Positions 47,301 through 50,300 of a DNA stretch of 64,000 nt are shown in pieces; the stretch's first letter is position 1; the number at the start of each line of letters is the position of its first letter. The DNA lies in NCBI RefSeq assembly GCF_054482595.1, contig NZ_CM137008.1, one strand, 5' to 3'. A program made the position numbers.

Positions 47301-50300
47301 ACACTTATACACTGGGTGCAACGGAATCCCAGGCGCACTATTATTTAGCTTGAACCGTTAATATTTTCCCTCCAGAATATTCTGTAAGATTACTTATTTC
47401 ATTAGCCAAAAGCGCTTTGAACATATTTCGGTCCTGCCCGAAAACAACGCCAGAAAAGAAAGTCCCAAGGTTGCGGTAGCCGCCTACGGTCGGCATACGG
47501 ATAAACAGGTAAGACGTACCCTCGTACGTGCCGGTAAACCAAGCATCATAATCTGTGAGAGATTGGTTATCACAGTGAGCAGCTCTAACTAATTTTGCGC
47601 GGGTAGAGATATTGCTGCCTACTGTATTAAGGTCATACGCACCCGATATAGGATTAAGATCTTCCCCGCTGCGTAATGTATAAATAGTCCCAATGCACCC
47701 TCGTTTCCCATACTGACCACCAACGATACGATAATACGGCCCAGCAGACTGGTCTGGATTCGGCAACGCCATATCCCGACACATAGTGGTACTGAACGTT
47801 GGTATGGTTGCCAGCCCACCAAGATTACCTAATGTAGCGAAAGTTGCAGTTTTCGTGTCGTATGAATTCCTTTGAGGCCACGACGTTTCAAACTTATTGC
47901 TGTACACGATTTCTAACTTAGCACCGTTAGTTAAACGGGCCATCGCGCCATTGAAAGTAGTGGTCGAGCTGGCAATTAGTTGCTTAATACTTACTTTAGC
48001 ATAACCAGATAGGTCAAACATGTAGCTACCTGCAGCCTGCGTTTGATCGTACAGATGTATATTATCTATCTGTAAGTTAGCCCCGGTGCCCTTAATAATC
48101 GTACCGCTGTTCTGACGTGAAGGTTGTTCACAACCTAAAGACGAAATGCTGTACGAGCCTGCGTTAAAAATATACGGAATCCCAGCGCAATCGTCAGCGG
48201 CTAATGGACCAATTTCACAATATGAGCCCGTCAACTCAAAGGCACAGTAGTTTGTTTTAAACGCGTTACATTGGGATACTACGTAGCTTGCCCCCCCATG
48301 TATATGAATACCACCATATATCCCGGTAGCGTCGGAACCTTGGACAACGATTTCGCGGATGGAAACACCAACGAAGGTATTGCCGCCAAAATACATCCCC
48401 CATTTTTGCGCAAGGATAAACAGATCACTAAATTCCTGGTATACGGCGGTATTGGGAGTGTAATACCCGTAACTATCCGTTGTATCGTCCAGGATGCGTA
48501 GTCCACGGACAACATTACCACGTTTACCCTTGTTATAGAAAACAGCGTTAATATCCTGAGTTCCTACCGCCGTTTTGCGAATAATGGATGCACGACCCTC
48601 CCCGACGAATCGGCTACCATTTGGTTGATAGTATTTCTCATTGTAAACATCTTCCAAATCGTAAAGAAGAATAGAGTCCGATATCTCATATTCGCCAGCG
48701 GGCACAAATATAGTTTTTCCCAGTTGCGCGGATACAAGCGATGCTCGATTAAAAGAGAGCGTCCAATCTGGATCTGAATCCAGTTTAAAGTCCAGTACAG
48801 AAATAGTTTCAGAGTTTTTCTGGTGTTGCGTTCGATTTACGGCCCCGTTAAATGGTTGCCGAACAGCTATCTTCGCATCATTAACAATAGTAGGACCATA
48901 GTCTTGCGCCAACTCTGACCTTAGTTGATCAGGGTCATACTTAAGCACATTCGGAAAATAGAACTGCTGTGCACCATATGCATCATAAACAGCCATAGAA
49001 TGGCCTTGCACAGTTACGAACTTGGCAATCTGTCCGTTATATACAGGATACCCGCCAGCGTTAATGATGATTGGCTGTGCAACAGGAACGTGAGAACCGT
49101 CTTCATTCTCTACATAAACCTGAATCTGGTTTTCAGGATTTACCGGGTCAGTGTCAATTTTTCCGATATAAATTTTGCCATTGGCAACCGCTTTAAAAGA
49201 ACGCGCCATAGTGAAGAGTTGCGAAGGCATACTCACTACAACATTGGCATTTATTGAATCTGTCATTTAATTTGCTCCAGATACAAGGAATCGCCGCAGC
49301 ATGGCTACGGTTGATGTTTGTTGCATACCGAAATGGTACGATTGTTGATTTGTACAGTAGGTTTTACGATGCCATTCCACCCATTTGGTGAGGCATTGAT
49401 GATGTACAGCAAATACGATGAGGCGCAGTTCCACTTCGGCATAATGCCATATTTTTTCTTTGCCATTATGCAACATTACTCCCATGAATCAGGTGTTGTA
49501 GTGCTTTAACACCTTCCTCATTGTAGCGGAATGCTTCCACCTGTTTGCTGGAATGCGCAGATTTATCCAGGAAGAACTTCCCGTACTGCTCAGTTTTGAG
49601 GTTGTTTGCGTTAGCAATGCGACCAATCTTGTTGGCCGTTACCCCAAGCTGCTCTGCAACCTCCCCTGCTGAGTAGTAATGCTCTTCTATTGCTGGAAGA
49701 GGTATTGCATTAAAACCAACGATCGGGTTGATTATGCTTGCTGCCGCAGTCTGCTTTGCTTCCGGCGCAAGATTTGGCATCAAATCGAACAGATTGGTAA
49801 CAGCTTCAACCGTCATTTTCAATGTTCGCGCCTGGCGATACTCAACAAGTCCACTAGACGATTTACCGCTTTTAATGTGCGCTTCTTGCATACTTTCAAG
49901 TTGGTCTACAAGTGAGCGGCGAACAGCTTTAGATTCACGAGCAGCCACTCGAAGGGCTTGCTTAATTGACATAACAACTTTTTCAGAAGTTGTCTTGTTT
50001 GATTTTTGAACTACGAAAATTTCGTAGTGCTCACCTTCAAGTTCATCCTTAATGCGTGCAATAAAGTCGTTATTGCGGACTTCTTTTTCCCCGCACTGTC
50101 TACGAGCATGATTGACCATCTCTAACAGGTACTGGCTATCAATGGTTTTATCCGTGACAACGGATCCGATGTTTGCTACATTCTTAAAAGTCATTAGGCA
50201 TTCCTTATGTGGTAGTAAGGGTGTGACATAGGCCGCCAGCAGCACACTGGCGGTTTTCTTTTTGCGCCGTCCGGCGCACCAATCAATGAATCCATTCCTC

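What the first reader, a model, noticed from the sequence alone, without database searches (positions are those of the whole stretch)
49267..49509. Unassigned ~240 bp between the KilAC-like gene and the tailspike start, with overlapping small ORFs on both strands
A 72-aa minus-strand ORF ends exactly one codon before the tailspike ATG, and a 63-aa plus-strand ORF overlaps it antisense. Neither looks like a typical protein. The region may instead be the tailspike promoter and leader, or it may encode a small regulatory RNA.
Basis: seen in the sequence. Interest (0 to 1): 0.25.

Follow-up and report, generated by a model that had tools for sequence, protein, structure and literature searches.

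The report
Deletion scar upstream of phage tailspike
The short unassigned stretch before the tailspike gene of this P22-like prophage is what a 426-bp deletion left of two small genes, joined to the ordinary conserved leader of the tailspike gene; the small ORFs in it are accidents, so the finding is ordinary.

Summary

About 50 complete E. coli genomes and phage JEP4 carry, in this position: antirepressor gene, orf73, bidirectional terminator, an mnt-type repressor gene (mnt2) on the other strand, a 135-bp control region, tailspike. The window lacks 426 bp of that arrangement. The junction at 49437|49436 joins codon 10 of orf73 to codon 12 of mnt2, antisense. All three ORFs are chimeras across this junction. 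The 72-aa frame is open in only 5 of 61 unique homologous segments, and none of the ORFs has a real family match.

What remains:
- an orphaned mnt2 control region with a weak candidate promoter and operator;
- the ~45-nt tailspike leader shared with P22, HK620, CUS-3 and epsilon34, with a conserved hairpin, GGAG and ATG.

There is no convincing sigma-70 promoter facing the tailspike, no Rfam match and no significant RNA fold. The sar RNA homologue lies elsewhere (50905..50985). The deletion also removed the only terminator between the antirepressor operon and the tailspike. This is a private instance of the known decay of the P22 "ant moron". Interest is low.

The parts
49466..49509 (-). 3' end of the antirepressor ('KilAC-like') gene. 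The CDS is about 50194..49466 including the stop TAA at 49468..49466. This stretch is not intergenic.
   Evidence: ORF list and sequence; phrog_1726 anti-repressor E=9e-101 and no Pfam hit; 100% identical to E. coli DETEC-E601 over window 49620..49437.
49437..49466 (-). 10-codon stump (MAKKKYGIMP) of orf73. This small gene of unknown function (phrog_4977) follows the antirepressor gene in relatives. Its ATG overlaps the antirepressor stop (TAATG).
   Evidence: Identical to the first 30 nt of JEP4_18 and of WP_001085225; the intact orf73 matches phrog_4977 at E=1e-53 over residues 1-73.
49436..49437 (.). Deletion junction (GCCG|AAGTGG on the minus strand). 426 bp present in relatives (L007 2765..3190) are missing: codons 11-73 of orf73, the bidirectional terminator, and mnt2 from codon 12 onward.
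   Evidence: BLAST breakpoints. All 49-50 complete E. coli genomes that span the site match in two pieces, about 423-426 bp further apart than in the query. No direct repeat of 8 nt or more lies at the endpoints in the intact relative. The junction 25-mer has 0 hits in IMG/VR and in metagenome contigs.
49402..49436 (+). 35-nt stump (MYSKYDEAQFH + 2 nt) of mnt2, an Arc/Mnt-type ribbon-helix-helix repressor gene that diverges from the tailspike gene in relatives. A further in-frame ATG lies at 49399.
   Evidence: Alignment to JEP4_19, Sf101 gp14 and VSe13_016. Intact mnt2 matches PF03869 Arc at E=4e-15 and phrog_795 at E=6.5e-33. The 63-aa ORF matches phrog_795 only at residues 18-40 (E=0.015). 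mnt2 is intact (84-88 aa) in 116 of about 127 loci.
49342..49370 (+). Candidate mnt2 promoter, TTGTTG-17-TACGAT. It is weak and now has no gene to serve.
   Evidence: It is the best sigma-70 score on this strand, at 6.9 bits, which is below the shuffle background. It lies in the position of P22 Pmnt (TTGAGA-17-TATCAT) and of phage L TTGTGG-17-TATGAT. Whether it functions is inferred.
49324..49340 (.). Candidate Mnt2 operator, CGTACCATTTCGGTATG (arms GTACC / GGTAT). It abuts the -35 of the candidate mnt2 promoter, as Omnt abuts Pmnt in P22.
   Evidence: It aligns with the phage L palindrome AAGACCACCGTGGTCTT, which resembles the P22 Omnt palindrome and occupies the same position relative to the promoters. 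It is the best conserved block of the intergenic region across both mnt2 subtypes. It occurs once in the window. The symmetry is weak and binding is not tested.
49377..49391 (.). Short inverted repeat CCACC-N5-GGTGA in the mnt2 leader, next to its Shine-Dalgarno sequence. Its role is unknown.
   Evidence: Read from the sequence. Phage L has CACTT...AAGTG at the aligned place. Its conservation was forced by the search pattern, so it does not count as evidence.
49267..49311 (-). Conserved tailspike leader, shared with P22, HK620, CUS-3, epsilon34, phage L and E. coli prophages whatever gene lies upstream. This interval corresponds to the proximal ~45 nt of the 101-nt ant-tailspike spacer that the CUS-3 record annotates as 'bsq1; boundary sequence'.
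   Evidence: BLAST hits start at query position 250, which is window 49311; alignments; CUS-3 annotation.
49294..49310 (-). Leader hairpin CCGUAGC-CAU-GCUGCGG, ending 15 nt before the GGAG.
   Evidence: Predicted in nearly all leaders. 98.2% of cells are paired in 55 unique P22-type leaders, the changes are mostly wobble-compatible, and one pair shows a compensatory change (C-G to U-A). Unrelated sequences in Sf6-type and Sf101-type leaders form a hairpin at the same place.
49264..49278 (-). Tailspike ribosome-binding site: GGAG (49278..49275), an 8-nt spacer, and ATG (49266..49264).
   Evidence: Read from the sequence; these columns are invariant in the alignments.
49267..49485 (-). 72-aa ORF. 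It is a chance open frame running across the 3' end of the antirepressor gene, the junction, antisense mnt2 and the leader. It is not a gene.
   Evidence: The frame is open in 5 of 61 unique homologous segments, and the others have 1-4 stops (for example TATGTAAC) and indels of 1, 2 and 11 nt. There is no PHROG hit and only a sub-threshold Pfam hit. The exact product is absent from the 15-billion-protein collection.
49305..49466 (-). 53-aa chimeric ORF: 10 codons of orf73 fused to antisense mnt2 and control-region sequence. It may be translated by coupling to the antirepressor gene, but the product is junk.
   Evidence: no family hit; exact product not in the collection.
49318..49509 (+). 63-aa ORF. 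It reads through the mnt2 leader and the 11-codon mnt2 stump, then antisense orf73 and antirepressor sequence. It is not a gene.

Best explanation
The interval is a deletion scar in the variable 'ant moron' (immI region) of a P22-like prophage, joined to the normal tailspike leader.

The ancestor had this order: antirepressor gene, orf73, bidirectional terminator, mnt2 (a ribbon-helix-helix repressor gene on the other strand), a 135-bp control region, tailspike. An illegitimate 426-bp deletion joined codon 10 of orf73 to codon 12 of mnt2 (49437|49436). It destroyed both genes and removed the terminator.

Shown:
- the breakpoints;
- the intact arrangement in relatives;
- the lack of conservation of the three ORFs, which are by-products of the junction;
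- the conservation of the leader.

Inferred:
- The only part still doing a job is the ~45-nt leader (49311..49267). Its hairpin, GGAG and ATG serve tailspike translation on late-operon mRNA.
- The mnt2 promoter and operator (49324..49370) are orphaned and probably inert or weakly active.
- With the terminator gone, transcripts from the window's own Pant (51225..51198) can run through arc, ant and the second antirepressor gene into the tailspike gene.
For: Intact arrangement annotated in JEP4 and in E. coli PK5, DETEC-E601 and SBF22. Breakpoints mapped, with a 100% identical left flank. All 49-50 complete E. coli genomes that span the site carry the extra ~426 bp. Stumps of both genes are readable in the window. 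The intact genes are real: orf73 = phrog_4977 at E=1e-53, mnt2 = PF03869 at E=4e-15, and mnt2 is intact in 116 of ~127 loci. The 72-aa frame is open in only 5 of 61 homologous segments and indels break the frames. No family hits for the ORFs, and their exact products are in no collection. The leader is conserved in P22, HK620, CUS-3, epsilon34, phage L and AHB4. A terminator is present in the intact relative (AAACCCGC...GCGGGTTTTTTT) and a t_ant is present in AHB4, HK620, CUS-3, epsilon34 and P22, but none lies between 50194 and 49267 on the minus strand of the window. The literature describes this region as in rapid flux with truncated immI genes (PMC2629481; PMC8022706), and the HK620 record annotates 'remnant of P22 mnt/ant gene' before gene 9.
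Against: No expression data exist, so 'inert' for the orphaned control region and 'read-through from Pant' are inferences. The right flank is only 96.6-98.3% identical to the best relatives, so the exact parent is not in the databases. The junction shows no microhomology or repeat that would explain how the deletion arose. An assembly error cannot be excluded without reads. The junction was found nowhere else, so it rests on this one sequence.
Confidence: 0.87

Rival explanations
1. The interval carries a promoter for the tailspike gene. It would be the counterpart of P22 Pant, once repressed by Mnt2 and now constitutive because mnt2 is deleted.
For: The control region is homologous in layout to P22 Pmnt/Omnt/Pant. 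Phage L has a plausible TCGGCA-17-TATATC facing gene 9. In the LF82 prophage Gally, mnt and the tail spike gene are co-induced independently of the late genes (PMC9928086).
Against: The best score facing the tailspike is 5.5 bits, against a shuffle-maximum mean of 9.0 and 13-16 for known immI promoters. The aligned -35/-10 pair (ATGGCA / TACAAA) has a 15-nt spacer here and 13 nt in the Sf101 type, so the spacing is not conserved. The consensus scan found nothing.
Confidence: 0.1
2. The interval encodes a small RNA. For example, a transcript from the orphaned mnt2 promoter (+1 near 49377) could run antisense into the antirepressor gene, or stop at the weak hairpin plus U-run at about 49438..49462.
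For: There is a candidate promoter, TTGTTG-17-TACGAT. A hairpin plus TATTTTTTCT lies on that strand just past the junction; it was flagged in the intact relative, where the stem is longer. The mnt2 terminator that would normally end this transcript is deleted.
Against: The promoter score is below background. There is no Rfam match. The fold of 49376..49465 is not significant (z=-0.35). The arrangement exists in this sequence only, so it cannot have been selected. The system's real antisense RNA, sar, is at 50905..50985.
Confidence: 0.07
3. One of the small ORFs (72, 63 or 53 aa) is a real protein-coding gene.
For: The ORFs are open in the window. The 53-aa ORF has a TAATG overlap with the antirepressor stop, which favours translational coupling.
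Against: All three cross a junction that exists nowhere else. The frames are not kept in homologues. There are no family hits, and the exact products are absent from 15 billion proteins. ORF pairs of this size are common in the window.
Confidence: 0.03
4. The window shows the ancestral state, and the relatives gained a 426-bp insertion.
For: None specific. Direction cannot be read from two states alone.
Against: The extra 426 bp complete two genes whose 5' ends, on opposite strands, lie outside it and are present in the window. Both genes belong to established families. An insertion cannot supply the matching 3' parts of two pre-existing stumps.
Confidence: 0.02

Closest known systems
Degraded immI / 'ant moron' regions of P22-like phages (Villafane et al. 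2008, PMC2629481). Examples: the HK620 'remnant of P22 mnt gene' and 'remnant of P22 ant gene' before gene 9, and the lone mnt-like gene of phage L (PMC8022706).
   Same: Same location, between the gene 16 and gene 9 homologues. Same kind of content: mnt/arc/ant-type genes and truncated pieces of them. Same interpretation, that insertions and deletions keep remodelling this region.
   Different: This particular 426-bp deletion, which fuses an orf73 stump to an mnt2 stump, was not found in any collection searched. The window also keeps a complete first immI set: mnt 51268..51588, arc, sar and ant.
P22 t_ant-to-gene 9 leader, and the CUS-3 'bsq1 boundary sequence'.
   Same: The last ~45 nt before the ATG (ACCGTAGCCATGCTGCGGCGATTCCTTGTATCTGGAGCAAATTAAATG) are shared almost base for base, including the hairpin and GGAG.
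   Different: In P22, HK620, CUS-3, epsilon34 and E. coli AHB4 an intrinsic terminator (t_ant) sits just upstream of this leader. In the window no terminator precedes it.
P22 Pmnt / Omnt / Pant divergent control region.
   Same: A -35 TTGnnn, a 17-nt spacer and a TAnGAT -10 lie in the same position relative to the mnt start, with a symmetric element abutting the -35.
   Different: The promoter is much weaker by score (6.9 against 13.0 bits). The operator symmetry is poor. There is no convincing Pant counterpart. The repressor gene itself is gone.
P22 sar antisense RNA.
   Same: Nothing in the finding interval resembles it.
   Different: The sar homologue lies in the arc-ant spacer, plus strand 50905..50985. 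It has the same two-hairpin fold as P22 sar (z=-5.2 against -5.6).

Membership tests
Ant moron / immI remnant of P22-like phages | Lies between the homologues of P22 gene 16 (DNA transfer protein) and gene 9 (tailspike). | tested here: met
   The ORF at 52482..54347 (-) occupies the position of the gene annotated 'DNA transfer protein' / P22 gene 16 homologue in the syntenic relatives (E. coli PK5, HK620). The tailspike is at 47341..49266 (-), and mnt, arc and ant lie in between. Synteny with P22, HK620 and E. coli prophages.
Ant moron / immI remnant of P22-like phages | Contains sequence homologous to an mnt/arc-type ribbon-helix-helix repressor gene. | tested here: met
   Window 49402..49436 is identical or nearly identical to the first 35 nt of mnt2. 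The intact homologue matches PF03869 at E=4e-15.
Ant moron / immI remnant of P22-like phages | The gene is truncated relative to intact homologues. | tested here: met
   11 codons remain out of 84-88. The 426-bp gap is mapped.
Functional Mnt-type repressor gene | A complete ribbon-helix-helix domain (beta-strand plus two helices). | tested here: not met
   Only the residues up to the start of the beta-strand remain. The 63-aa ORF has no Arc-domain hit.
Protein-coding gene (72-, 63- and 53-aa ORFs) | Reading frame kept in homologous sequences, or homologues in protein databases. | tested here: not met
   The 72-aa frame is open in 5 of 61 segments and indels shift the frames. There are no Pfam or PHROG families, and the exact sequences are absent from the collection.
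Sigma-70 promoter for the tailspike | -35 and -10 hexamers with a 16-18 nt spacer, scoring above background, facing the gene. | tested here: not met
   The best score is 5.5 bits against a shuffle-maximum mean of 9.0. The consensus scan found none. Activity itself cannot be tested here.
sar-type or other known small RNA | A match to a described RNA family, or a stable conserved fold with promoter and terminator. | tested here: not met
   No Rfam match at E<=10 within the interval. Fold z-scores are -1.5, -0.9 and -0.35. sar is not an Rfam hit anywhere; its homologue was located by alignment at 50905..50985.
Intrinsic terminator between ant and gene 9 (t_ant) | A GC-rich hairpin followed by a U-run, upstream of the tailspike leader. 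| tested here: not met
   None between 50194 and 49267 on the minus strand. The leader hairpin is followed by CGAUUCCUUGUAUCU, which is not a U-run.
Conserved tailspike leader of P22-like phages | About 45 nt of sequence identity ending in GGAGCAAATTAAATG. | tested here: met

The most novel reading that the evidence does not exclude
The hairpin in the tailspike leader (window 49310..49294) may be a functional RNA element of P22-like tailspike genes. It could be a processing or stability signal, or an insulator that keeps the ribosome-binding site free of the ever-changing upstream sequence. It is kept as a structure in three unrelated sequence versions (P22 type, Sf6 type, Sf101 type). In this prophage its effect would matter more than usual, because the deletion removed the only terminator between the antirepressor operon and the tailspike. 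The tailspike would then be transcribed from Pant under Mnt/Arc control as well as from the late promoter.
Probability: 0.3. Interest if true: 0.3.

Novelty: new member of a known kind. Interest (0 to 1): 0.1.

Why it matters
It matters little. The result tells annotators to call no genes in this interval and to mark two gene stumps and a leader instead. It adds one dated, base-precise example of how the P22 'ant moron' decays by illegitimate deletion. Two small points could be tested. First, loss of the terminator may couple tailspike transcription to the antirepressor operon. Second, the leader hairpin is conserved as a structure across tailspike leaders of unrelated sequence.

Tried and rejected
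- Rfam at a permissive threshold over 48800..52000: nothing in the interval. The only weak hits are chance-level ones elsewhere.
- Consensus promoter/terminator scan and my own PWM scan with P22 controls: no promoter above background in either direction.
- RNA folding of both strands and of the putative mnt2-promoter transcript: not significant.
- Pfam and PHROG searches of the three ORFs: only sub-threshold noise, plus the expected weak phrog_795 match of the mnt2 stump.
- Exact look-up of the three ORF products among 15 billion proteins: absent.
- Search for the junction in complete E. coli genomes, phage records, IMG/VR and metagenome contigs: never found. I could therefore not date the deletion or find a second carrier.
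- Search for repeats or microhomology at the deletion endpoints: none of 8 nt or more. The imperfect GCCGCCAAG / GCCTCAAG similarity does not reproduce the junction.
- Test of the candidate operator as a true palindrome: it does not match its own reverse complement within 3 mismatches, so it rests on position and conservation only.
- Covariation test of the leader hairpin: high pairing but only one pair with a compensatory change. This is suggestive, not proof.
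Full report
**Observation.** The tailspike gene runs 47341..49266 on the minus strand. Its N-terminus is of the P22 gene 9 type, and the start aligns with the annotated P22 start. The upstream gene ends at 49466 (stop TAA 49468..49466). A third ORF of 53 aa (49305..49466, minus) starts with an ATG that overlaps the upstream stop codon (TAATG). The real gap between genes is 199 bp, not ~240. Such ORFs are not unusual in this sequence: 12% of 243-bp windows hold two or more small ORFs of at least 60 aa.

**What comparison shows.** Phage JEP4 and about 50 complete E. coli genomes match both halves of the interval at 94-100% identity. They do so in two pieces that lie about 423-426 bp further apart than in the window. 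Their annotation reads: antirepressor ('KilA' / hypothetical) gene; a 73-codon gene starting at the TAATG overlap; a bidirectional terminator; an 'Arc family DNA-binding protein' or 'regulatory protein mnt' gene on the opposite strand; then the tailspike gene.

Base-level mapping against E. coli DETEC-E601 gives:
- window 49620..49437 = L007 2581..2764, at 100% identity;
- window 49436..49200 = L007 3191..3424, at 96.6% identity.

The window therefore lacks L007 2765..3190, which is 426 bp. On the minus strand the junction reads ...ATGGCAAAGAAAAAATATGGCATTATGCCG|AAGTGGAACTGCGCC.... The left part is the first 10 codons of orf73 (MAKKKYGIMP). The right part, read on the plus strand, is the first 11 codons plus 2 nt of mnt2 (ATG at 49402; MYSKYDEAQFH).

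**Direction of the event.** It was a deletion in the window's lineage. The missing block completes two genes whose 5' ends lie outside it, on opposite strands. Both genes are real:
- orf73 matches phrog_4977 over its full length (E=1e-53).
- mnt2 carries the Arc domain (PF03869, E=4e-15).
- mnt2 is intact at 84-88 aa in 116 of about 127 loci collected.

No repeat or microhomology flanks the endpoints, so the deletion was illegitimate. The junction 25-mer is absent from 5,426 complete E. coli genomes, the phage records, IMG/VR and the metagenome contigs. The host flank is E. coli or Shigella: uvrB is 100% identical to E. coli strains, and the prophage lies next to what the gene order around uvrB in E. 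coli suggests are ybhB and bioA.

**The ORFs.** All three cross the private junction, so none can be older than the deletion.
- In 61 unique versions of the segment from mnt2 codon 12 to the tailspike ATG, the 72-aa frame is open in only 5. The others carry 1-4 stops, and indels of 1, 2 and 11 nt shift the frames.
- Pfam and PHROG give nothing except a weak phrog_795 hit at residues 18-40 of the 63-aa ORF. That hit is the mnt2 stump itself.
- The exact products are absent from a 15-billion-protein collection.

These ORFs are not genes.

**What is left, and what it may do.**

(a) *The tailspike leader, 49311..49267.* P22, HK620, CUS-3, epsilon34, phage L and E. coli AHB4 share these ~45 nt almost base for base, whatever lies upstream. 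The CUS-3 record labels the spacer containing it 'boundary sequence'. The leader holds GGAG (49278..49275), an 8-nt spacer and the ATG. It also holds a hairpin, CCGUAGC-CAU-GCUGCGG (49310..49294).
- In 55 unique P22-type leaders the hairpin pairs in 98.2% of cells. The changes are mostly wobble-compatible, and one pair changed C-G to U-A.
- Sf6-type and Sf101-type leaders, which are unrelated in sequence, place a hairpin at the same spot.
- I read the leader as the working part of the interval. A role for the hairpin is only suggested.

(b) *The orphaned mnt2 control region, 49312..49401.* By position it matches the P22 Pmnt/Omnt layout.
- A -35 TTGTTG, 17-nt spacer and -10 TACGAT lie on the plus strand at 49342..49370.
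- A conserved block, CGTACCATTTCGGTATG (49324..49340), abuts the -35. It aligns with the Omnt-like palindrome of phage L.
- The promoter scores only 6.9 bits. The best hit in shuffles averages 9.0; P22 Pmnt scores 13.0, P22 Pant 16.3, and the window's own Pant 14.6.
- The operator symmetry is poor.

(c) *No promoter toward the tailspike.* Nothing facing the tailspike scores above 5.5 bits. The hexamers that align with Pant have a spacer that differs between subtypes, 15 against 13 nt. A tailspike promoter is therefore not supported by sequence.

(d) *No small RNA in the interval.* There is no Rfam match and the folds are not significant. The system's known antisense RNA, sar, has a clear homologue in the arc-ant spacer at plus-strand 50905..50985. 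It has the same two-hairpin fold as P22 sar (z=-5.2 against -5.6).

**A likely consequence (inference).** In every other arrangement examined, a terminator separates the antirepressor genes from the tailspike.
- In the intact orf73-mnt2 relatives it is the bidirectional terminator.
- In P22, HK620, CUS-3, epsilon34 and E. coli AHB4 it is t_ant. AHB4 lacks orf73 and mnt2 altogether.

The window has no terminator-like site between 50194 and 49267 on the minus strand. Transcripts from its own Pant (51225..51198, TTGACA-16-TAAATT, followed by the palindrome TTGGTTCTAGAACCAA) should therefore continue into the tailspike gene. Villafane et al. note that in P22 this region is thought to influence how much late transcription reaches the tailspike gene (PMC2629481).

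**Comparison with what is known.**
- Villafane et al. [quoted passage not shown] They found ten types in sixteen genomes, with truncated and degraded immI genes, and ascribed the variety to frequent insertions and deletions.
- Zaworski et al. [quoted passage not shown]
- The HK620 record annotates remnants of mnt and ant just before gene 9.

The window is one more case of this, with a private breakpoint. It is not a member of any protein, promoter or RNA family tested. It does belong to the class 'immI remnant plus conserved tailspike leader'.

**Verdict.** The 'promoter' and 'small RNA' ideas are unsupported. The full explanation is a 426-bp deletion scar. Interest 0.1; a new instance of a known kind.

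Noticed in passing
window 50905..50985 (+): Homologue of the P22 sar antisense RNA in the arc-ant spacer. It aligns with P22 15021..15090 and folds into the same two hairpins followed by a U-run (z=-5.2; P22 sar z=-5.6). Rfam gave only a chance-level symR hit here (E=0.8), so there appears to be no sar family in Rfam.
   Followed up: partly
window 50154..50266 (+): A second, sar-like unit. A promoter-like site (GTGACA-17-TACATT with TG, 50154..50182) and a strong terminator hairpin plus U-run (50230..50256 and following) lie on the plus strand. Together they would give a ~75-nt RNA antisense to the start codon (50194) and Shine-Dalgarno sequence of the second antirepressor ('KilAC-like') gene. 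Fold z=-1.85. Conservation in relatives was not checked.
   Followed up: partly
window 49294..49310 (-); loci L133, L178 (Sf6 type); L002 and many others (Sf101 type): Tailspike leaders of three unrelated sequence types all place a hairpin about 15-30 nt before the GGAG. A few contigs (L186, L148) have lost one arm of it, apparently by slippage between the repeated CTGYGG arms.
   Followed up: partly
L006 (P22) 16042..16070 and 16152..16180: P22 carries a 29-nt direct repeat (86% identity, spacing 110 nt) of the 5' part of the tailspike leader, AAAATTCACCGTAGCCAYGCT. It flanks a ~110-bp insert between t_ant and gene 9. This looks like another rearrangement that used the 'boundary sequence'.
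   Followed up: partly
L001 (phage JEP4) 3200..3563: JEP4 keeps the P22-type leader and ATGACAGAT, then diverges into ~300 bp of AT-rich sequence. Similarity to the head-binding domain resumes at 3523, and the tailspike is annotated from 3412. The tailspike start appears to have been remodelled there.
   Followed up: no
L005 (E. coli PK5) 1208..1360 and 3421..3674: In this prophage the first mnt-type gene is annotated as truncated and the second (mnt2) as frameshifted. A few other loci have mnt2 cut to 11 or 31 aa or fused. Decay of these repressor genes is therefore recurrent.
   Followed up: partly
L009 (E. coli AHB4) 2007..2837: A third arrangement: the antirepressor gene is followed after 104 bp (a t_ant-like terminator plus the leader) by the tailspike, with no orf73 or mnt2. 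The 3' end of its antirepressor gene differs from the window beyond window position 49521.
   Followed up: partly
window 38589..46703 and 47341 onward: The prophage lies next to uvrB, on the side where E. coli K-12 has bioDCFB, bioA and ybhB. That is the region of the lambda attachment site, not the thrW site used by P22. Only uvrB was identified by a search. The bio and ybhB names are my reading of ORF sizes and order. No tRNA gene was found in the window.
   Followed up: no
window 49438..49462 (+): A short hairpin (GGCA-UAA-UGCC) followed by AUAUUUUUUCUUUG on the mnt strand, just past the junction. The intact relatives have a longer version inside the start of orf73, flagged as terminator-like. 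It could end any transcript from the orphaned mnt2 promoter after about 80 nt.
   Followed up: no
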